Assembly: GCA_944363635.1 (NCBI GenBank)
Contig: CALVUP010000001.1
Coordinates: 16,235-80,234, forward strand
Source of the DNA: an uncultured Bacilli bacterium
GTDB taxonomy: Bacteria; Bacillota_I; Bacilli_A; RF39; UBA660
DNA length: 64,000 bases
Direction: 5' to 3'
This document shows, one piece after another, positions 1 through 10,471 of the stretch. A program made the position numbers and the translations under genes. The notes beneath the pieces are model-generated. The model was not told the origin of the DNA, did no database searches, and was given only the letters and a program-made list of their open reading frames with translations. Position 1 is the stretch's first letter. Each line of letters opens with the position of its first letter.

Positions 1-1703
1 ATTTCATCTTAGATGAGTTTGCAAATATGCCACCTTTAAAAGATGTAACGACGATGATTACCGCTGCACGTTCTAGACAGATTCGTTTTACAATGATCAT
101 TCAAAACTTTGCCCAATTAAATCAAGTATATGGAAAAGAAAATGCGGAAACAATAAAAGGAAACTGTGGAAATATTATCTATTTAATTTCAACAGAACTT
201 GCTGCATTAGAAGAAATTAGTAAATTGTGTGGAGAAGTCAAAAGCAAAAAAGACGATAAAACAGCATCCACACCACTTGTTACAGTCAGTGACTTACAGC
301 GTATGAAACAATTTGATCAAATTGTACTTCGTATGCGTTCACAACCTTTTAAAACCCATTTTGTTCCTGATTTTCAAATCGATTGGGGAAAGAAATATGG
401 ACAAATTGGTTACCCAACAAGAGAAAAAAGACCAGTAGAAGTTTTTGATATAAGAGATTTTGTAAAAGAAAGAAAAAAACAAAAATTATTTGAAATGATG
501 AATTCAAACGATGAGAAGCCATCTGCATTACCAGGGAATAATACCTCTTCTGCACCAAATCCATTTAAACAGAGTTTGGGCAATGATCCTTTCAAGCAAC
601 CTGCACTTAATCATGCCCCAAAAAAGGATGAGGATGATTTTGATGTAGATGCTCTTGTAAGAAAAATCGACGCTAAAATAGCTCAATTAGAAGCTGAAGA
701 AAAAGCTGAAAAAGAAAAGAAAAATCCAATGACGAGTGCGTCTTTAGAACCAAAGCCAACTTTATTGAACTCTACATTTGAAAACGCTAAGTCACAAATA
801 GAGCATAAGGATAATTTAAAAACGTCACAAGAACAGAAACCTACATTATTAAATTCCACATTCAATAATGTAAAGCCAAGCGTAGATCATGAAACATCGC
901 CAGTACAAGAAGAAGAAAAACCAACCATTTTAGGATCTACCTTTACTAACGTAAATCAACAACAAAAAGAAGAAAAGAAGCCAGTAGATGTTGATTCTAT
1001 ACTTACAAAATTAGATGAGCAAATTTATGAGAAAAAGGAACCAACACCGATGCCAAAAGAGGATAAACCAACTATTTTAGGATCTACATTTACGAATACA
1101 AAGCAACCAGAAAGAAAAGACGAAAAAGAGGTTGATCTTGATACTTTATTAAATAAGGTAAATAAAAAATTACAAGAAGCAGAAGAAAAAGCAGAGCCTA
1201 AAAAAGAATCTCCAGTGGTTAAACCATCTTCTATTTACGAAGGAAAAGTAGAACCATCCGATATTCGAATTGATTATTCATCTCGTGATGAAGATACACT
1301 GGATACTTTTAAAGAAACAACAGTTCCAACAAAAGTAGAAACGAGTAAACAAGATCACGAATTACTAGATGAAATTAATACGGTTTTAAATCATAAACCA
1401 GAACCAAAAGCAAATACTTCTGATATGATGATTGAACCAAAAATATTTGAAGATACCATCGATGATAAGAAAGAGAATGTATATAATTTGGATAATACAA
1501 TGAATGATTTAAATCATAAGAAAGAAAAAAATACATATAGTAAAGAAACACCTGTTTCAAAGATTGATCAAACAAGTACACCTGAAAAAGAAACGTCAAA
1601 TTCTTCTGTTATGATCAATAATGACATTATTATTGATAAAGATTCTACCGAAGATGATGATAATTTCTTTGATGATTTCTTTGATGATGATGATTGGAGT
1701 TAG
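1..1703 (+). CDS. C-terminal part of a VirD4/TraG-family type IV coupling protein, 5' end outside the window, with a long K/E/P/T-rich repetitive tail
   Basis: Frame is open from nt 1 (FILDEFANMPPL...). Motifs ILDEFAN, AARSRQIRFTMIIQNFAQL and GNCGNIIYL match the T4CP C-terminal ATPase region. Residues from about 180 onward are low-complexity with four degenerate 'KPT(L/I)LNSTF' repeats. Confidence 0.6.
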   Translation, partial: FILDEFANMPPLKDVTTMITAARSRQIRFTMIIQNFAQLNQVYGKENAETIKGNCGNIIYLISTELAALEEISKLCGEVKSKKDDKTASTPLVTVSDLQRMKQFDQIVLRMRSQPFKTHFVPDFQIDWGKKYGQIGYPTREKRPVEVFDIRDFVKERKKQKLFEMMNSNDEKPSALPGNNTSSAPNPFKQSLGNDPFKQPALNHAPKKDEDDFDVDALVRKIDAKIAQLEAEEKAEKEKKNPMTSASLEPKPTLLNSTFENAKSQIEHKDNLKTSQEQKPTLLNSTFNNVKPSVDHETSPVQEEEKPTILGSTFTNVNQQQKEEKKPVDVDSILTKLDEQIYEKKEPTPMPKEDKPTILGSTFTNTKQPERKDEKEVDLDTLLNKVNKKLQEAEEKAEPKKESPVVKPSSIYEGKVEPSDIRIDYSSRDEDTLDTFKETTVPTKVETSKQDHELLDEINTVLNHKPEPKANTSDMMIEPKIFEDTIDDKKENVYNLDNTMNDLNHKKEKNTYSKETPVSKIDQTSTPEKETSNSSVMINNDIIIDKDSTEDDDNFFDDFFDDDDWS

Positions 1704-3376: not shown

Positions 3377-4189
3377 ATGAAACAAATTATACCTTTTAAT
3401 AAAGATATTGCATTCAAAACCATGATTGGAGAAATACAATCTATATCTTTAGAACATACTTTAAAAATAGAGGAAGATAACAATATTAAAGGGGATTTTA
3501 TTGTTAGTGGTAGTTATAAAATGACAGAAGCTTCTACCATTGCCGAAGAATTTTCTTATAAAATACCAGTGGATATTTATATTGATGAACAATACAATTT
3601 AGAAGATGCTACGATAGATATTGATGATTTCAAATATAGCATAGTCAATGATGATACTTTAGAAGTAAAAATAGATGTTGTACTTGATCACATGCAAGTG
3701 ATTGAACCTATAAGTGATATTAGTACTGATGAAGAAGTCATTCGTACACATCTAGATAAAGAGTATTTAAAACGAAAAGAAGATCTTCAAGATGTTACCG
3801 AGCAAACACAAAATGAAGAAGAAAAAGAAGAACTACTAGAATCTAAGAAAGAAGAGGAAACTTCTATGCGAAATACGAGTGATAAACAGAATAGTTCAGA
3901 ACAAATTTATACAACAAAAAATAAAGAAATGGTAGATGAGATACAAATTCCAATAGAAACATCCGATACGAAAGAACAAGAACCTGTAGAATCTTTATTT
4001 AGTAAATTTAGTGATGAAGAAGATAGCTATGCCACTTACAAAGTATATATTGTAAGAGAAAATGATAATTTAGAATCGATTATGGAAAAATACAATGTTT
4101 CTGTAGATGAACTTAGAGAGTACAATAACATTGATGATTTAAAAATAAATGATAAGCTAATCATACCATCTCATAATGAACACGCTTAG
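3377..4189 (+). CDS. SpoVID-like protein (SPOCS-like N-terminus, C-terminal LysM)
   Basis: N-terminus resembles the SpoVID/SPOCS region and the C-terminus carries LysM ('YKVYIVRENDNLESIMEKYNVSVDELREYNNI'). Followed by a CotS/YsxE-like gene, as in Bacillus spoVID-ysxE. Confidence 0.45.
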   Translation: MKQIIPFNKDIAFKTMIGEIQSISLEHTLKIEEDNNIKGDFIVSGSYKMTEASTIAEEFSYKIPVDIYIDEQYNLEDATIDIDDFKYSIVNDDTLEVKIDVVLDHMQVIEPISDISTDEEVIRTHLDKEYLKRKEDLQDVTEQTQNEEEKEELLESKKEEETSMRNTSDKQNSSEQIYTTKNKEMVDEIQIPIETSDTKEQEPVESLFSKFSDEEDSYATYKVYIVRENDNLESIMEKYNVSVDELREYNNIDDLKINDKLIIPSHNEHA

Positions 4190-5060
4190 AAGTCTAGTTG
4201 AAAATATTGATAAAATAACTAAGCAAAAAAATAGAACCATCATACAAGCAAAGGATAAAAGGTATGTTGCAAAAGAAAACAAAAATAAAATGATTTATGA
4301 CTATTTAAGTAGTCGAGGTTTTATGTACTATTTAGAACCATTAAAAAGAAATGAAGATTATAATTTATATCAATATATCGAAGAAATAGATACTCCAAAT
4401 GAACAAAAAGCATTAGACATTATTCATATTATGGCCTTACTTCATAAAAAAACAACCTATTATAAAGAAATAAATTTAGATGAAATTAAAGAAATTTATG
4501 AAAACACCACAAATCAAATCTTATATTTATTTGAATACTATCATAATTTACAAGAAACTTTGGAACAAGAAGAATTTTTTTCTCCAAGTTCTTATATGTT
4601 GCTGCGTGAAATATCTTCAATTTATGGCAGTCTAAATTACTGTAAAGAAGAAATTGATCGTTGGTATGAAACAATAAAACAAAAAAAGGAGATACGTCTT
4701 TGTTTAGTGCATAACAACTTAGATATCTCTCATATACTAGAAAGTGAAAACAAGTATTTGATTAGTTGGTCTAAAGCGAAAAAAGATTTACCAATTTATG
4801 ATTTTTATCATTTTTTTAATAATTGTTTTGAAATGATGGATTTTTCTCTTTTATATAAGGAGTATATAGCAAATTATCCATTAACCAAAGAGGAAGAAGC
4901 GCTATTGTTTGTGTTTATTTCAATACCAGAAAAGGTTATATTAGATTTAGATGAATATACGAATTGTTTAAAAATTAAAAAATTATATACAAAATTATCC
5001 CGTGCGAATAATATTATTTTAAATCAAAGATCGAAACAACAAAAACAAGAACAACCATAA
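4176..5060 (+). CDS. CotS/YsxE-family spore-coat/phosphotransferase-like protein
   Basis: 'LCLVHNNLDISHIL...LISWSKAKKDLPIYDFYHFF' resembles the kinase-like CotS/YutH/YsxE core. 14-nt overlap with the upstream gene. Confidence 0.4.
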   Translation: MNTLRSLVENIDKITKQKNRTIIQAKDKRYVAKENKNKMIYDYLSSRGFMYYLEPLKRNEDYNLYQYIEEIDTPNEQKALDIIHIMALLHKKTTYYKEINLDEIKEIYENTTNQILYLFEYYHNLQETLEQEEFFSPSSYMLLREISSIYGSLNYCKEEIDRWYETIKQKKEIRLCLVHNNLDISHILESENKYLISWSKAKKDLPIYDFYHFFNNCFEMMDFSLLYKEYIANYPLTKEEEALLFVFISIPEKVILDLDEYTNCLKIKKLYTKLSRANNIILNQRSKQQKQEQP

Positions 5061-5231
5061 TTCTAAAACAAGGATAAATGCAACAGAACGACAAGGGTTA
5101 ATAAGACATAAAATGGATTGATACATTAAAATAATAAATAGAATAAGAATAAAAACAAGGTTTAGAAGAGAAAATCTTCTTTTTTTTCTACACATTTCAC
5201 AAAAGCAAAAGAAACCATGTTTTCGTCCCAT
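5019..5231 (-). CDS. possible small Cys-rich membrane peptide, 70 aa
   Basis: AGGTGA RBS 5 nt before ATG. 'CFCEMC' then two hydrophobic helices. Overlaps the 3' end of the YsxE-like gene. Confidence 0.25.
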   Translation of the reverse strand: MGRKHGFFCFCEMCRKKRRFSLLNLVFILILFIILMYQSILCLINPCRSVAFILVLELWLFLFLLFRSLI

Positions 5232-5367
5232 TTATATCACCTAGTATATTGTATGAAAAAAAGAAATTTGTGTTATAAGATAATTAAATAGGTATAAAAT
5301 ATTATTGTAATGACAATGTGCCCACAAAAATAAAAAAAGACATACAATAGAACTGTGAGGTGAGAAA

Positions 5368-5655
5368 ATGAATAGTATGCCAAAATCAACGAATCTAAAC
5401 ATTCGGTTAGATAAAGAATTGAAAGAACAAGCAGATAAGCTATTTAAAAAGCTAGGATTAAATATGTCAAGTGCAATTAATTTGTTTTTAACACAAAGTG
5501 TAAAAGAACAAGGAATACCATTTTTAATAACCGATAAAAAGCCAACTAAAAAGCTACAAAAAGCACTTCAAGAAGCTGATGCTATTGCTAGTGGTAAAAA
5601 AGAAACAAAAAGTTATACCAACTTTGAAGAGTTGCTTAAGGATTTGGATAAATGA
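5368..5655 (+). CDS. dinJ: type II antitoxin, RelB/DinJ family
   Basis: AGGTGA RBS. 'NLNIRLDKELKEQADKLFKKLGLNMSSAINLFLTQSVKEQGIPF' is the DinJ ribbon-helix-helix pattern. Overlaps the next gene by ATGA. Confidence 0.75.
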   Translation: MNSMPKSTNLNIRLDKELKEQADKLFKKLGLNMSSAINLFLTQSVKEQGIPFLITDKKPTKKLQKALQEADAIASGKKETKSYTNFEELLKDLDK

Positions 5656-5938
5656 ATTATCAATTAAAGCAAACTTCAATATTTAAAAAACAATTAAAAA
5701 AAATGATTAAACGAAAAAAAGACTTAAATAAAATGAGCAATATAGTAAATCGTTTACTTGCTGGTAAAACACTTGAAGAAAAATATAGAGATCATCAGTT
5801 GTTTGATGATAAAAAATATAAAAGTTGTAGGGAATGTCATGTTGAGCGGATTGGTTGTTAGTATATCAATATTTAGAAGATCAATTAATATTATTATTAA
5901 TACAGACGGGTAGTCATAGTGATTTATTTAAGAAATAA
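5652..5938 (+). pseudogene. yafQ: yafQ-family RelE-type toxin with a 1-nt deletion frameshift
   Basis: Frame 0 gives ...YRDHQLFDDKKYKSCRECHVE then RIGC*. The -1 frame continues ADWLLVYQYLEDQLILLIQTGSHSDLFKK*, matching the YafQ C-terminus (HVEPDWLLIY...RTGSHSDLF). The shift lies in 'gagcggattgg' near 5844-5852. Confidence 0.7.
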
Positions 5939-5941
5939 ATA

Positions 5942-6197
5942 TTTACAAAATTCAAATTATCCTGTATAATACGTTTATAAATGCGTTGGATTGAGGAGTA
6001 TATTTATAAGAGTTTAAGAGAGTTATCGTTTGGTGGGAGATAATACTTAAATAAATAGAAGGTAGCAATCAAGTAGAATTTTTGAGAAATCGAAAGTAGA
6101 AAATTCCGTATCTCGCGTTAAGAGAAAGAGGTTATTATAAATAATAAACTAAGGTGGTACCACGAAAGATTCGTCCTTATGATGAATCTTTTTTTAT
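5942..6197 (+). promoter_or_regulatory. T-box leader with promoter and terminator, upstream of the HD-domain gene and valS
   Basis: TTTACA (5942-5947), 17 nt, TGTATAAT (5963-5970). T-box core 'aactaaggtggtaccacg' at 6147-6164. Terminator stem aagattc (6166-6172) / gaatctt (6184-6190) plus T7 run. Specifier codon not resolved. Confidence 0.65.
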
Positions 6198-6211
6198 TGC
6201 TTGGAGGGATT

Positions 6212-6946
6212 ATGGATAAATATATAGAAGCATTTGAAAACTATGTAGCATCATTTGATCTCGAGGTTTCACAGTTAAAAAGAAAAAAAGAACATACTTA
6301 TCGGGTCATAAAACTTTGTATGGAGATTGCCAAGTCTCTACAAATGAATGATCATGATGTTTTCCTTATGAAATTAATTGGCTTGTATCATGATATAGGT
6401 CGTTTTGATCAATTCAAACAGTTTTCTAAATTCAATGATTCTGAAACATATGATCATGCTTCTAAAGGAGTAATAATTTTAAATACTTTACAAATATTAG
6501 ATGATTTAGAAGAAAAAGATTTAATTTTAAAAGCTATTGAAAATCATAATCAAATCAAATTAGAAGAAAATCTTTCTCCAAGAGAAAAGCAGTTCTGCGA
6601 GATCATAAGAGATGCAGATAAACTTGATATATTAAACTTAGTAATCGAAGGTAAAATTAAGATGAATCCTTATGATGAAAAATATAGTGAGAAAGCTGTC
6701 CAAACGATTTTGAATGGAGAATGCATCGATTTAAAAGAATATCCAAGAAAGGTCGATCAATCTTTAGTAAAAATAGGATTGATGAATGATATTGTATTTC
6801 CGTTTTCGAAACAATATATTCTAAAAAATAATATGATTGATGAGTTAATAGAAATTTATATAAAGAATAACCCAAAAGAAAAAGATACATTAGAAAAAAT
6901 AAAGAAGAAAGTAAAAGAAAGGATGAATGATACAAATGTTAGATAA
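6212..6946 (+). CDS. HD-domain phosphohydrolase
   Basis: 'LIGLYHDIGRFDQF' HD motif. Start moved from 6179, which lies inside the T-box terminator, to ATG 6212 with a GGAGGG RBS. Confidence 0.6.
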   Translation: MDKYIEAFENYVASFDLEVSQLKRKKEHTYRVIKLCMEIAKSLQMNDHDVFLMKLIGLYHDIGRFDQFKQFSKFNDSETYDHASKGVIILNTLQILDDLEEKDLILKAIENHNQIKLEENLSPREKQFCEIIRDADKLDILNLVIEGKIKMNPYDEKYSEKAVQTILNGECIDLKEYPRKVDQSLVKIGLMNDIVFPFSKQYILKNNMIDELIEIYIKNNPKEKDTLEKIKKKVKERMNDTNVR

Positions 6947-9365
6947 AAAATATAATTTTAAAGAAAAAGAAGAAAAATGGGAGAAATATTGGGAAGAGAA
7001 TAATATTTATGAATTTAAGCCTGATCATAGAAAGGTTTATTCTATCGATACCCCGCCACCAACTGTAAATGGAAAAATTCATATAGGACATATATTTTCT
7101 TATTCACAAGCTGAAATGATTGCAAGATATAAAAGAATGATGGGATACAATGTTTTTTATCCTTTTGGTTTTGATGATAATGGGCTTCCAAGTGAGCGAC
7201 TTGTCGAAAGAGAACAAGGAAAAAAGGCTCATGAAATAGGAAGAGAAGAATTCTCAAAACTTTGTTATGATACTACGAATAAATATGAAGCGGAGTTTAA
7301 AAAACTATTTAAACGTGCTGGATTTAGTGCAGATGTAGATCATGCTTATAAAACAGTAAGTCCATCTAGTTCTAAGATCAGTCAATTATCTTTTTTAGAA
7401 CTTGTAGAAAAGGGACATTGCTATCATAAAGAAAGTCCTGCTCTTTGGTGTAGTGAATGTTTAACTTCTATTGCTCAAGCCGAGTTAGAAACTAAAACGA
7501 TAAAAACAACATTTAATTACATTCATTTTTATACCAAAGAAGATCATGAAGAATTTACCATTGCGACCACTAGACCCGAACTTCTTCCAGCTATTGTTTG
7601 TGTATTTGTAAATCCAAGTGATGAAAAACATAAACATTTAATTGGTAAGACGGCTTGCATTCCGGTCGTAGAAGAAGAAGTACCAATTCTTGCCGATGAA
7701 AAAGTTGCCATTGATAAAGGTACAGGTGTCGTTATGTGTTGTACGTTTGGAGATCAAACCGATATTGAATGGTGGAAAAAATACAATTTGCCACTTAAGA
7801 ATATCTTTACAAAAGATGGGCATATTGTAGATACAGTAAAAAATTATGGTGGATTAACCATTAAACAAGCTAGAAAACAGATCATTGAGGATATTAAAGA
7901 AGCCGGATATTTAGTAAAAGTAGAAGATTTGGAGCATGAAGTACAAACGCATGAGCGATGCGGAAGAGAAGTAGAATATGCTGTTATGAATCAATGGTTT
8001 ATTGATATCATGAATCATAAAGAAGATTTCTTACGTATTGGGGATGAAATCAATTGGTATCCAAAACACATGCAAGCAAGATACAACGAATGGGTAGAAA
8101 ATATCATGTGGGATTGGTGTATTTCAAGACAAAGATATTTTGGTGTACCATTTCCTGTATGGTATTGTAAAGATTGTGGTGAACCTATTTTCGCAAGAAA
8201 AGAAGATTTACCAGTCAATCCACTTGTAGATAAACCTCCTGTAGAAAAGTGTCCAAAATGCGGATCTTCTGAATTCATAGGAGAAACAGATATTATGGAT
8301 ACATGGCAAACATCTTCTGTTACACCTTTAATTAATATGAAATATGGAGAAAAAGACAACCTAGAAGACATTTTAAAACCAATGTCCTTAAGATGCAATG
8401 CCCATGATATCATTCGTACTTGGGATTTCTATAGTATTGTAAAAAGTTATTATACCTTTCTTCAAAAACCTTGGGAAAATGTAATGATTTCCGGATTTGT
8501 AATGGCCGATAAAGGAGAAAAAATCTCTAAAAGTAAAAACAATTCTAAAATGGAACCATTTGAATTATTAGAACAGTATGGAGCGGATATTGTTCGTTAC
8601 TGGGCTGGATCTGGTAAATTAGGTACCGATATCATCTTTAATGATGAAACATTCTTAAGAGGAAAGAAATTGATCAATAAGATTTGGAATGTATCTAAAT
8701 TTATCGAAATGCATTTACAAGATTACAAAGACAAAGAAATTAAAAATTATGAATACATGGATCGTTTTATTTTAGCAAAATACAAAAAAATGGAAGAAGC
8801 TTTCTTAAAATATTTAGATGAATATGAAATTGGGCTTGCTTTAAATATTTTAGAAAAATTCTTCTGGGAATTCTGTGATAATTACATTGAAATTGTAAAA
8901 CATAGATTGTATAGGCCAGAAGAGTTTGGAGAAGAAGCACGTTATTCCGGACAAAAAACCATTTATACTTTGCTTTATAAATTGTTACAAGACTTCTCTA
9001 TTTTCTTCCCATTTATCACAGAAGAAATTTATCAAGATTTATATAAGAAAGAAAAATCTATTCATTTAACAACGATTGAGCCATTAGAAGTCTCTTACGA
9101 AGAAGAAAGAAAAAACGGTGATTTATTATTAGAAATCATCAGTGTTTGCAGAGGAGAAAAAACCAAAAACAATGTATCTTTAAAAACACCTATCAAAAAC
9201 CTTGAACTTGGTTTATCAAAAGAGTTAAATCAAGCTTTAGAAGAAGCCATAAAAGATATAAAAGCTACATTATTTATCGAAAATATGAGTCGAAAAGAAA
9301 TAGATTCTTCTTATGAAATTTATAAGATTGAATTAGATTTGGAAGAAAAAAATGGAGGAGAATAA
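6927..9365 (+). CDS. valS: valine--tRNA ligase
   Basis: 'PPPTVNGKIHIGH' (HIGH), 'KISKSKNN' (KMSKS) and valS-type editing/CP1 regions. Start ambiguous by about 9 nt (ATG 6927 or 6936). Confidence 0.9.
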   Translation: MIQMLDKKYNFKEKEEKWEKYWEENNIYEFKPDHRKVYSIDTPPPTVNGKIHIGHIFSYSQAEMIARYKRMMGYNVFYPFGFDDNGLPSERLVEREQGKKAHEIGREEFSKLCYDTTNKYEAEFKKLFKRAGFSADVDHAYKTVSPSSSKISQLSFLELVEKGHCYHKESPALWCSECLTSIAQAELETKTIKTTFNYIHFYTKEDHEEFTIATTRPELLPAIVCVFVNPSDEKHKHLIGKTACIPVVEEEVPILADEKVAIDKGTGVVMCCTFGDQTDIEWWKKYNLPLKNIFTKDGHIVDTVKNYGGLTIKQARKQIIEDIKEAGYLVKVEDLEHEVQTHERCGREVEYAVMNQWFIDIMNHKEDFLRIGDEINWYPKHMQARYNEWVENIMWDWCISRQRYFGVPFPVWYCKDCGEPIFARKEDLPVNPLVDKPPVEKCPKCGSSEFIGETDIMDTWQTSSVTPLINMKYGEKDNLEDILKPMSLRCNAHDIIRTWDFYSIVKSYYTFLQKPWENVMISGFVMADKGEKISKSKNNSKMEPFELLEQYGADIVRYWAGSGKLGTDIIFNDETFLRGKKLINKIWNVSKFIEMHLQDYKDKEIKNYEYMDRFILAKYKKMEEAFLKYLDEYEIGLALNILEKFFWEFCDNYIEIVKHRLYRPEEFGEEARYSGQKTIYTLLYKLLQDFSIFFPFITEEIYQDLYKKEKSIHLTTIEPLEVSYEEERKNGDLLLEIISVCRGEKTKNNVSLKTPIKNLELGLSKELNQALEEAIKDIKATLFIENMSRKEIDSSYEIYKIELDLEEKNGGE

Positions 9366-9813
9366 AATGCCAAAGAAAGAACAAGAGTAAGATCAAAGAA
9401 ATCGCAAAAGATCATAAAATGGTGTCTGCGGTTAAAAACATTAGTAAATTTTCCTTGGATAAAGATCAAGCAGAATTATTAAAAAATACAGTTTAAATAA
9501 GAATGTTTTACAAACTATGAGGGTGCTAGATCAAAAAGATTGTATACAAAGTTTACAAGAAGATACTTTTGATAATCAAAAATTAGAACAAGAGTATAAT
9601 AGGGCGATTGAAATAGGAACAAAACCTAAGAGTCTTAAAAAGACCATGACAGAAATGTATAGACAAAAATAAGAAAATATGCTATTCTGTATATAGATGA
9701 AGAAAACTTCATAAAATAAAAAAGGGAATGCTTAATTGGCGATTGAGCACTTACCTGTATATGGTTGCACTTAATCTAGGATTGAGTGCTGTTTTCTTTT
9801 ATAAGCTTACTTC

Positions 9814-9891
9814 TTACAAAGTAAAAAGTAAAGATATAAGTAAGAAGATAATAATGAATAACGTAAAGATTAAAAAATCTTTTTTAAACAT
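9814..9891 (-). CDS. candidate type I toxin-like small hydrophobic peptide, 25 aa (locus A)
   Basis: GGAGGTGG RBS 4 nt before ATG. MFKKDFLIFTLFIIIFLLISLLFTL. Minus-strand TGTATAAT at 9952-9959. Convergent plus promoter TAGACA-17-TATTCT at 9660-9688. Confidence 0.35.
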   Translation of the reverse strand: MFKKDFLIFTLFIIIFLLISLLFTL

Positions 9892-10051
9892 ATTACCACC
9901 TCCAATCGTTATGAATGAAGGCAAGCACTCTTATTAAACATTCCATGTTCTATTATACAATAAGTAAACCTTGATAACAATCGAACAAAAGAAAAATATA
10001 TTACCAAATAGAACTATAGACAAAAATAAGAAAATATGCTATTCTGTATAT

Positions 10052-10167
10052 AGATGAAGAAAACTTCATAAAATAAAAAAGGGAACATTCAGTTTTGCAA
10101 AGTTGAATGTCTACCCTAATTAAACTGAGATAGACATTTAAGTCAAGGACTTAAGTGTCATTTTTTT
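10052..10167 (+). ncRNA. candidate antisense RNA of TA-like locus B
   Basis: Promoter TAGACA (10017-10022), 17 nt, TATTCT (10040-10045). 5' hairpin 'aacattcag...ttgaatgt'. Terminator stem gacatttaagt/acttaagtgtc at 10133-10159 plus T7, overlapping the 3' end of the minus-strand peptide gene. Confidence 0.35.
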
Positions 10168-10250
10168 ATTACAATTATCATAATGATAAAAAGGAACAAA
10201 ATGATAGAAATGAATTTTAGAACTTTTATGATAAAAGTTTTAGTTTTCAT
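10158..10250 (-). CDS. candidate type I toxin-like peptide, 30 aa (locus B)
   Basis: GGAGG RBS. MKTKTFIIKVLKFISIILFLFIIMIIVIKK. Minus-strand TGTATAAT at 10317-10324. The paralogue at 20919-21011 conserves the peptide despite an indel in the 5' UTR. Confidence 0.55.
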   Translation of the reverse strand: MKTKTFIIKVLKFISIILFLFIIMIIVIKK

Positions 10251-10471
10251 TTTATCAAACCTCCTCTCTGTATGAGATTTGGTAGACACTCAACAACTGG
10301 TATTACCTTAATCTTTATTATACAATAAGTAAACTTTGTACACAATGAAATCAGAATGATTTGCGTTGTAAGATTTTACCAAATTTATTTTCAATTACAA
10401 ACTTTGAAAACCTTGTAAATTATATAAAAATGTGCGATAATATAAGGGATTTATGTATAAGGAGGGAGAAT

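What the first reader, a model, noticed from the sequence alone, without database searches (positions are those of the whole stretch)
5368..5938. Intact DinJ antitoxin paired with a YafQ toxin inactivated by a 1-nt deletion
The toxin frame stops at 5861 after '...CHVERIGC'. The -1 frame restores 'ADWLLVYQYLEDQLILLIQTGSHSDLFKK', the conserved YafQ C-terminus that carries catalytic His and Phe residues (established for E. coli YafQ). Either the toxin is decaying while the antitoxin is retained, or this is a sequencing error. The site is not a homopolymer, which favours a real mutation.
Basis: seen in the sequence. Interest (0 to 1): 0.5.

Follow-up and report, generated by a model that had tools for sequence, protein, structure and literature searches.

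The report
Eroding DinJ–YafQ toxin–antitoxin module
A chromosomal toxin–antitoxin gene pair in an uncultured gut Bacilli bacterium has lost its toxin to a genuine, population-wide 1-base deletion and has also lost the −35 box of its main promoter, which is the ordinary way such modules decay.

Summary
A RelB/DinJ antitoxin ORF (5368-5655) overlaps a YafQ-family toxin ORF that stops at 5861. Restoring one C (GAG CCG GAT) gives a 95-aa protein that matches the whole Pfam YafQ model (57 to 101 bits).

The deletion is not a sequencing error. Eighteen of 19 independent metagenome contigs carry it, on at least 7 haplotypes. No intact allele more than 75% identical exists among 5.8 billion protein clusters.

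A 98%-identical variant (L008) and a sister lineage at the same chromosomal site keep the ancestral CCG (Pro66, invariant in 118 homologues). The sister has both genes intact.

The frameshift removes Asp67, Trp68, His89 and Phe93, the equivalents of E. coli YafQ D67, W68, H87 and F91. dN/dS against the sister is about 0.12 for both genes, so the inactivation is recent.

Later lesions are present in some strains (His63Tyr, a second frameshift).

The antitoxin ORF is intact. Selection for keeping it is only weakly suggested (4 synonymous : 1 non-synonymous polymorphisms, P≈0.06).

Verdict: ordinary toxin-first erosion of a chromosomal TA module. Low novelty.

The parts
5368..5655 (+). dinJ-like antitoxin CDS (95 aa, RelB/DinJ ribbon-helix-helix family), intact. 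Its TGA stop overlaps the yafQ ATG (ATGA, 5652-5655).
   Evidence: PF04221 E 7.4e-11 and TIGR02384 80 bits against a 45.65 cutoff. Best solved relative is E. coli DinJ 4ML0_A, E 5e-5. Only two protein variants (A74V) exist in a 15-billion-protein collection.
5652..5938 (+). yafQ-family toxin pseudogene, whole former CDS. Repaired it encodes 95 aa.
   Evidence: HP0892 E 1.5e-14 and E. coli YafQ E 2e-12.
5652..5861 (+). Remaining 5' ORF of yafQ (69 aa). Residues 1-65 are native, followed by the out-of-frame tail RIGC and a stop.
   Evidence: PF15738 positions 1-61/88 only.
5847..5848 (+). Site of the 1-nt deletion. The remnant 'CG' comes from the ancestral CCG codon (Pro66, invariant in 118 homologues).
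   Evidence: Alignment with L008 and the sister lineage. Conservation table.
5849..5938 (+). Out-of-frame 3' part of yafQ. It encodes D67 to K95, including D67, W68, H89 and F93, plus the TAA stop.
5321..5326 (+). Ablated −35 hexamer of the module's promoter. It reads CCCACA here and TTGACA in L008 and the sister lineage (TTG>CCC at 5321-5323).
   Evidence: The promoter scan finds the 11/12 site in L020 and L008 but not in the window.
5343..5348 (+). −10 hexamer TACAAT of the same promoter, conserved. Spacer to the −35 is 16 nt.
   Evidence: The same TTGACT-17-TACAAT arrangement precedes a 36%-identical dinJ homologue in L026.
5304..5317 (+). Candidate operator O1, palindrome ATTGT-aatg-ACAAT just upstream of the −35. 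This is an inference.
   Evidence: Read from the sequence. The block TGTAATGACAATGTG is invariant between the window and the sister lineage, whereas the surrounding intergenic region is not. ACAATGT repeats also lie upstream of dinJ in L024.
5344..5356 (+). Candidate operator O2 overlapping the −10. It reads ACAAT-aga-ACTGT here and is a perfect palindrome ACAAT-atg-ATTGT in the sister. This is an inference.
5357..5363 (+). Ribosome-binding site GAGGTGA of dinJ.
   Evidence: Read from the sequence. Invariant.
5164..5187 (+). Terminator-like hairpin plus T8 of the upstream ysxE-like gene (AGAAGA gaaaa TCTTCT TTTTTTT). It marks the 5' limit of the module.
   Evidence: Read from the sequence. Conserved block. 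Not called by the scan because it has fewer than 3 G-C pairs.
5942..6181 (+). 3' limit of the module: promoter TTTACA-17-TATAAT (5942-5970) and T-box leader (5977-6181) of the downstream HD-domain gene and valS.

Best explanation
This is a vertically inherited chromosomal type II toxin-antitoxin operon. It has an autoregulated promoter, then a dinJ-like ribbon-helix-helix antitoxin, then a translationally coupled yafQ-like toxin (a ribosome-dependent mRNA endonuclease). It sits between a ysxE-like sporulation gene and the T-box/HD/valS operon of an uncultured Bacilli bacterium.

In the lineage sampled by the window the module is dead and eroding, toxin first. One C of the invariant Pro66 codon (CCG) was deleted. 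Translation therefore ends four codons later, and the segment carrying Asp67, Trp68, His89 and Phe93 is lost. By homology with E. coli YafQ these are the pKa-tuning Asp, the general acid His and the base-stacking Phe.

The −35 box of the module's consensus promoter was changed from TTGACA to CCCACA on the same branch. I infer that this came after the toxin loss, because silencing an operon that still encodes a stable toxin and a labile antitoxin would be harmful.

Both lesions are fixed in all main-lineage strains sampled. Further damage is now accumulating in the toxin remnant (His63Tyr and a second frameshift). The dinJ ORF is still intact, mainly because little time has passed; weak purifying selection is possible but not shown.

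Shown: the deletion, its ancestral state, its fixation, the loss of conserved residues, the promoter change and the synteny. Inferred: loss of toxicity, the order of events, the operator sites and the expression level of DinJ.
For: (1) Family assignment and the gain from 57.3 to 100.6 bits on restoring one base.

(2) Ancestral CCG is seen in L008 (98% identical) and in sister-lineage contigs L020-L023. These have an intact 95-aa dinJ and 95-aa yafQ at the same site: ysxE-like gene upstream, T-box downstream, 78-82% nucleotide identity.

(3) The deletion is present in 18 of 19 independent contigs and 7 haplotypes. No intact protein more than 75% identical exists in 5.8e9 clusters. The JGI pattern scan returned only one contig, which duplicates L014 and carries the deletion allele.

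(4) In 118 homologues, Pro66, Trp68 and His89 are 100% conserved, Asp67 99% and Phe93 96%. The catalytic roles of the E. coli equivalents are given in PMC4652777.

(5) dN/dS between the window and the sister is 0.12 for dinJ and 0.11-0.14 for repaired yafQ, with dS above 1. The toxin was therefore constrained for nearly all of the divergence and the loss is recent.

(6) Promoter: the 11/12 match TTGACA-16/17-TACAAT is present in L020 and L008 and absent in the window. CCC and the deletion are perfectly linked.

(7) Post-inactivation changes in yafQ are all non-silent: H63Y in L002/L009, I64V, and an A-run deletion in L006.

(8) Toxin-only pseudogenization is the common erosion route in chromosomal TA systems: 185 toxin-only, 186 both and 8 antitoxin-only copies in Photorhabdus (PMC13617665).
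Against: No expression or toxicity data exist, so loss of function is inferred from homology.

A possible second promoter with an extended −10 (TGtTATAAG, 5271-5279) could still transcribe dinJ, so 'silenced' is not proven.

The dinJ polymorphism pattern (4 synonymous: 1 conservative non-synonymous) leans towards continued constraint. That fits 'retained' rather than 'merely not yet decayed', but P is only about 0.06.

The three adjacent −35 substitutions could be one neutral multi-nucleotide event.

The rest of the genome could not be scanned for a partner toxin.
Confidence: 0.85

Rival explanations
1. The antitoxin is actively retained. After toxin loss, DinJ is kept by selection as an orphan antitoxin. 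It would serve either as an anti-addiction factor against incoming YafQ-bearing mobile elements or other genomic YafQ/RelE toxins, or as a transcription factor. The −35 change would then be an adaptive re-tuning of its expression rather than decay.
For: The dinJ ORF is intact in all 19 contigs. Only 2 protein variants are known. Polymorphisms since the deletion are 4 synonymous: 1 conservative A74V, with binomial P≈0.06. Toxin loss may have happened twice, because L008 has a different frameshift. Orphan antitoxins are abundant and have been proposed as anti-addiction modules (PMC7192599).
Against: The numbers are too small for significance. Fisher's test for dinJ against yafQ gives P = 0.14-0.24. 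Within-lineage diversity is only about 0.5%, so an intact 288-nt ORF is expected by time alone. The consensus −35 was destroyed, which lowers rather than preserves expression. No second YafQ or RelE gene lies in the 64-kb window.
Confidence: 0.2
2. The frameshift is a sequencing or assembly artefact and the toxin is really intact.
For: None beyond the a priori possibility for a MAG-derived contig.
Against: The same deletion occurs in 18 independently assembled contigs from many runs and projects, on 7 different SNP haplotypes. The site is a CC dinucleotide, not an error-prone run. No intact allele exists in the protein collection.
Confidence: 0.01
3. Programmed −1 ribosomal frameshifting, or a split toxin re-initiated at TTG 5855, still yields active YafQ. 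The interruption would then be regulatory.
For: The two frames overlap over 5846-5861. CGG is a rare codon in this AT-rich genome. A TTG lies 4 nt before the stop.
Against: There is no X XXY YYZ slippery heptamer and no homopolymer in the overlap GCGGATTGGTTGTTAG. A −1 product would carry Arg in place of the 100%-invariant Pro66. A TTG-5855 fragment would lack Asp67 and Trp68. The sister lineage and 118 homologues encode an uninterrupted ORF. Some strains add H63Y or a second frameshift. The promoter is damaged as well.
Confidence: 0.02

Closest known systems
E. coli DinJ–YafQ type II toxin–antitoxin system (PDB 4ML0/4Q2U; YafQ mechanism in PMC4652777)
   Same: The gene order is antitoxin then toxin with overlapping stop and start codons. 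The antitoxin is a RelB/DinJ ribbon-helix-helix protein (E 5e-5 to DinJ).
   Different: The toxin here is frameshifted and the promoter −35 is mutated. The repaired toxin scores only 62 bits against the 87.25 cutoff of NCBIfam TIGR00053 'YafQ family'. The host is a low-GC Bacilli bacterium. No LexA box was looked for or seen.
Helicobacter pylori HP0892/HP0894 YafQ-family toxins (PDB 4NRN, 2OTR, 1Z8M)
   Same: These are the closest solved relatives of the repaired toxin (E 1.5e-14). They share the RECH..PD.LLVYQ and GSHS.LF motifs.
   Different: Those are intact, active toxins. Here the C-terminal third is out of frame.
Toxin-first erosion of chromosomal TA modules and orphan antitoxins (Photorhabdus survey PMC13617665; Klebsiella survey PMC7192599)
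   Same: The toxin is pseudogenized while the antitoxin ORF persists in an otherwise conserved neighbourhood. The module is absent from the closest genome representative (L025) and intact in a sister lineage.
   Different: Here the ancestral state, the exact mutation, its fixation across strains and a linked promoter lesion can all be read directly from population data.

Membership tests
YafQ-type RelE/ParE-superfamily toxin (Pfam PF15738) | Full-length sequence match above the curated threshold | tested here: met
   The repaired ORF scores 100.6 bits against a GA of 30 and covers 1-88/88. The native 69-aa ORF covers only 1-61/88.
YafQ-type RelE/ParE-superfamily toxin (Pfam PF15738) | NCBIfam TIGR00053 'YafQ family addiction module toxin' cutoff | tested here: not met
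   62.1 bits against a cutoff of 87.25. The broader TIGR02385 RelE_StbE is met (84.5 against 27.9). It is therefore YafQ-like by Pfam and by solved structures, but not a strict NCBIfam YafQ.
YafQ-type RelE/ParE-superfamily toxin (Pfam PF15738) | Catalytic set equivalent to E. coli H50, H63, D67, H87, F91 | tested here: met
In the native reading frame only H48 and H63 remain.
YafQ-type RelE/ParE-superfamily toxin (Pfam PF15738) | Intact ORF encoding an active ribosome-dependent mRNase | tested here: not met
   A frameshift at codon 66 gives a stop at 5859-5861. Enzymatic activity itself cannot be tested with these tools.
RelB/DinJ antitoxin | N-terminal ribbon-helix-helix domain matching RelB/DinJ models | tested here: met
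   PF04221 scores 42.3 bits against 22.4. TIGR02384 scores 80 against 45.65. E. coli DinJ E 5e-5 over residues 8-56.
RelB/DinJ antitoxin | Neutralizes the cognate toxin and represses its own promoter | not testable with these tools
   There is only indirect support: conserved palindromes flank the promoter, and gene order and coupling are typical of the family.
Type II TA operon | Adjacent, co-oriented, overlapping antitoxin and toxin genes behind one promoter | tested here: met
   ATGA overlap at 5652-5655. A single consensus promoter is present in the sister lineage and L008. In the window the −35 is mutated.
Programmed −1 frameshift site | Slippery heptamer X XXY YYZ in the frame overlap, conserved among relatives | tested here: not met
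   The overlap 5846-5861 contains none. Relatives have an uninterrupted ORF.

The most novel reading that the evidence does not exclude
Toxin loss was selected rather than neutral. Two sublineages of one species would have inactivated yafQ independently: the C deletion at codon 66 in the main lineage and an A7-to-A8 insertion at codons 21-23 in L008. The main lineage would then have re-tuned the now toxin-free dinJ by a three-base rewrite of its −35 box, keeping DinJ as an orphan antitoxin or regulator, for example as immunity against YafQ-carrying mobile elements.
Probability: 0.15. Interest if true: 0.35.

Novelty: new member of a known kind. Interest (0 to 1): 0.15.

Why it matters
Mostly this matters for annotation. 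The 69-aa 'YafQ toxin' that gene callers report here is a pseudogene fragment. The locus should not be counted as a functional TA or defence system.

It is also a clean, datable example of toxin-first TA erosion in an uncultured gut Bacilli lineage. The ancestral allele, the sister-lineage intact module and the population haplotypes are all available. A linked promoter knock-out is also visible, which surveys based on ORFs alone would miss. It does not open a new question.

Tried and rejected
(1) Sequencing error. Rejected by 18 independent contigs on 7 haplotypes.

(2) Programmed frameshift or split toxin. There is no slippery motif, the invariant Pro66 would become Arg, and a re-initiated fragment would lack D67 and W68.

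(3) Search for any intact allele of this lineage. The protein search found nothing above 75% identity. The exact-pattern scan of JGI metagenomes allowing either allele returned only one contig, which carries the deletion allele and duplicates L014.

(4) Search for a second YafQ/DinJ pair in the 64-kb window that the antitoxin might serve. None was found.

(5) Template or donor for the TTG>CCC change. The 10-mer TGTGCCCACA occurs nowhere else in the window.

(6) Generic inverted-repeat finder on the promoter region. It returned only AT-rich chance palindromes. The operator candidates come from reading the sequence and the cross-lineage alignment, and they remain inferences. A search for the perfect ACAAT-N(2-5)-ATTGT palindrome found no match in the window.

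(7) Selection tests on polymorphism. The direction fits constraint on dinJ and relaxation on yafQ, but the results are not significant.

(8) Genome-collection scan with the ysxE-like neighbour. The window's own species is not among the representatives. The closest one (78% aa) lacks both the TA module and the HD gene.

Full report
**1. The observation**

The window carries a 95-aa ORF at 5368..5655 and a 69-aa ORF at 5652..5861. They overlap by ATGA.
- The first ORF is a RelB/DinJ-family antitoxin: PF04221 E 7.4e-11; TIGR02384 80 bits against a cutoff of 45.65; E. coli DinJ 4ML0_A E 5e-5.
- The second ORF matches positions 1-61 of the 88-position Pfam YafQ_toxin model (57.3 bits) and then stops after ...CHVERIGC.
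- The neighbouring frame continues with DWLLVYQYLEDQLILLLIQTGSHSDLFKK* to 5938.
- Inserting one C (GAG CCG GAT) gives a 95-aa protein that matches the model end to end (100.6 bits, E 5.9e-29). It also matches solved YafQ-family toxins: H. pylori HP0892 at E 1.5e-14 and E. coli YafQ at E 2e-12.

There are two trivial slips: one L is missing in the quoted peptide, and the repaired length is 95 aa, not 94.

**2. Real mutation or error**

An exact-sequence look-up of the antitoxin, of the toxin fragment and of the only other antitoxin variant (A74V) returned 19 contigs, L001-L019. They were assembled independently from different sequencing runs.
- Over 4176-6178 they are 98-100% identical to the window.
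- Eighteen of them carry the same deletion. They fall into at least seven SNP haplotypes.
- A pattern scan of JGI metagenomes that allowed either allele found one contig. It carries the deletion allele and is the same ENA contig as L014, so it adds no independent sample.
- A search of 5.8 billion protein clusters with the repaired toxin found no intact protein more than 75% identical.

A sequencing or assembly artefact is excluded.

**3. The ancestral state**

The one exception, L008 (98% identical), reads GAGCCGGATTGG. Contigs L020-L023 have the same reading. Their toxins are the 75%-identical best hits (P0001 and P0125).
- L020-L023 align with the window at 78-82% nucleotide identity through the end of the ysxE-like gene, the intergenic region, both TA genes and the downstream T-box leader.
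- They therefore represent a sister lineage with an intact 95-aa dinJ and 95-aa yafQ at the orthologous site.
- The deleted base is one C of the CCG codon for Pro66.
- In an alignment of 118 full-length homologues, Pro66 is 100% conserved. Among the residues now out of frame, Asp67 is 99% conserved, Trp68 100%, Gly87 and His89 100%, and Phe93 96%.
- In the alignment with E. coli YafQ, H48/H63/D67/H89/F93 correspond to H50/H63/D67/H87/F91.
- In the proposed E. coli mechanism, His50 or His63 is the general base, His87 is the general acid, Asp67 tunes His87, and Phe91 stacks on the mRNA base (PMC4652777).

The native product keeps the two N-terminal histidines. It loses the acid, its partner and the stacking residue, and roughly the last third of the fold.

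**4. Timing**

Nei-Gojobori dN/dS between the window and the sister lineage is 0.12 for dinJ and 0.11-0.14 for the repaired yafQ, with dS above 1. The toxin was under the same purifying selection as the antitoxin for nearly all of the time since the split. The deletion is recent on that scale, although it is older than the diversification of the seven haplotypes.

All changes in the toxin remnant since the deletion are non-silent:
- I64V in the window's haplotype.
- His63Tyr in L002 and L009, at a catalytic histidine.
- A further A-run deletion in L006.

L008 keeps CCG but has an extra A in the A7 run at codons 21-23, which also breaks the frame. This is a single contig, and I could not check whether that insertion is real.

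**5.

Aligning the upstream intergenic region shows that L008 and the sister lineage have a near-consensus promoter, TTGACA-16/17-TACAAT, ending about 20 nt before the dinJ start codon.
- The promoter scan ranks it first in both, at 11 of 12 matches.
- The same architecture (TTGACT-17-TACAAT, then GAGGTGA, then ATG) precedes a 36%-identical dinJ homologue in L026.
- In the window the −35 reads CCCACA (5321-5326; TTG>CCC at 5321-5323), and the scan no longer reports a promoter there.
- All 17 main-lineage contigs that cover the site have CCC. CCC and the C deletion are perfectly linked.
- Two short palindromes flank the promoter: ATTGTaatgACAAT (5304-5317) and ACAATagaACTGT (5344-5356; a perfect palindrome in the sister). 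The first sits in an invariant block. These are plausible operators for the ribbon-helix-helix antitoxin, but that is an inference.
- A weaker promoter with an extended −10 (TGtTATAAG, 5271-5279) may remain, so I cannot say that dinJ is silent.

**6. Context**

The module lies in a core chromosomal region. In order:
- a spoVID-like LysM gene;
- a ysxE-like gene;
- the TA module;
- a T-box leader with a GUA (Val) specifier;
- an HD-domain gene;
- valS, dnaG, sigA and trmK.

The closest genome representatives are uncultured Bacilli MAGs.
- The closest (L025, ysxE-like protein 78% identical) has neither the TA module nor the HD gene between ysxE and valS.
- A more distant one (L026) has the HD gene but carries a different DinJ/YafQ pair upstream of spoVID.

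The module therefore occupies a variable slot. It was present in the common ancestor of the window lineage and its sister, and it is now decaying in one of them. No second YafQ or DinJ gene is present in the 64-kb window.

**7. Is the antitoxin retained by selection?**

The ORF is intact everywhere, and only two protein variants exist in the collection. Polymorphisms in dinJ are four synonymous and one conservative A74V.
- Counting only transitions, the probability of at most one non-synonymous change in five is 0.06.
- Comparison with yafQ (4 non-synonymous : 2 synonymous, or 2:0 within the main lineage) is not significant (P = 0.14-0.24).
- With about 0.5% diversity in the lineage, an intact 288-nt ORF is expected from lack of time alone.
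- The loss of the −35 argues against strong selection for expression.

I rate selected retention, as an orphan antitoxin, anti-addiction factor or regulator, at about 0.2.

**8. Rivals rejected**
- Programmed −1 frameshifting. The 16-nt frame overlap has no slippery heptamer or homopolymer. The product would carry Arg for the invariant Pro66. All relatives have an uninterrupted ORF.
- A split toxin re-initiated at TTG 5855. It would lack Asp67 and Trp68.

**9. Comparison with what is known, and verdict**

Toxin-only pseudogenization is the usual first step of TA erosion in chromosomes. In Photorhabdus, 185 copies had only the toxin pseudogenized, 186 had both genes pseudogenized and 8 had only the antitoxin pseudogenized (PMC13617665). 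Orphan antitoxins are abundant in Klebsiella (PMC7192599).

This locus is a well-resolved new example of that known process in a YafQ-like/DinJ-like module. By Pfam and by solved structures it belongs with YafQ. It falls below NCBIfam's strict YafQ cutoff but above the RelE/StbE cutoff.

The practical consequence is that the called 69-aa 'YafQ toxin' is a pseudogene fragment. Interest is low (0.15). The most novel reading still open is selected, possibly parallel, toxin loss with re-tuning of an orphan DinJ, with probability about 0.15.

Noticed in passing
L008:340-920 (equivalent to window 5707-5713 and 5847): The one contig that keeps the ancestral CCG and the TTGACA promoter has an extra A in the A7 run at toxin codons 21-23. 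Its yafQ is therefore frameshifted at a different place. This is either an independent second knock-out of the toxin or a homopolymer error in a single assembly.
   Followed up: partly
L002 and L009 (equivalent to window 5838); L006 (equivalent to window 5696): Secondary lesions sit on top of the shared deletion. CAT>TAT changes the catalytic His63 to Tyr in two contigs from one project. An A8>A7 deletion occurs at about codon 15 in another contig.
   Followed up: yes
window 5977-6946 and 6927-9365: The T-box leader (110.7 bits, apparent GUA/Val specifier) sits in front of an HD-domain gene that overlaps valS, so the HD protein appears to be co-regulated with valS by tRNA-Val charging. The closest related genome (L025) has no match to the HD protein, only a ~500-nt gap (not examined) between ysxE and valS. 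L026 has the HD gene.
   Followed up: partly
L026:8685-9264: A related MAG carries a different DinJ/YafQ-like pair (36% and 48% identical) upstream of the spoVID-like gene instead of downstream of ysxE. Its promoter layout is very similar (TTGACT-17-TACAAT...GAGGTGA). The record is titled 'uncultured Muribaculaceae bacterium' although the contig carries Bacilli-type sporulation genes (spoVID/ysxE-like). This suggests a mislabelled or mis-binned MAG. L032 has the same problem.
   Followed up: no
window 27-1703 (974 aa in L001:1-2337): A TraG/VirD4-type type IV secretion coupling protein domain (TraG-D_C, T4SS-DNA_transf, TrwB_AAD_bind) is followed by about 470 residues with no Pfam hit. It lies next to a glycosyltransferase and sporulation genes in what otherwise looks like core chromosome. 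No other conjugation genes were seen nearby.
   Followed up: no
window 9366-10360: About 1 kb between valS and dnaG has no ORF of 90 aa or more, only 51-aa and 69-aa ORFs on the + strand. Rfam found nothing there at gathering threshold.
   Followed up: no
window 5954: A main-lineage-derived substitution (C>A relative to L008 and the sister lineage) lies in the spacer of the valS/T-box promoter, immediately after the yafQ stop codon. No terminator is predicted between yafQ and that promoter.
   Followed up: no
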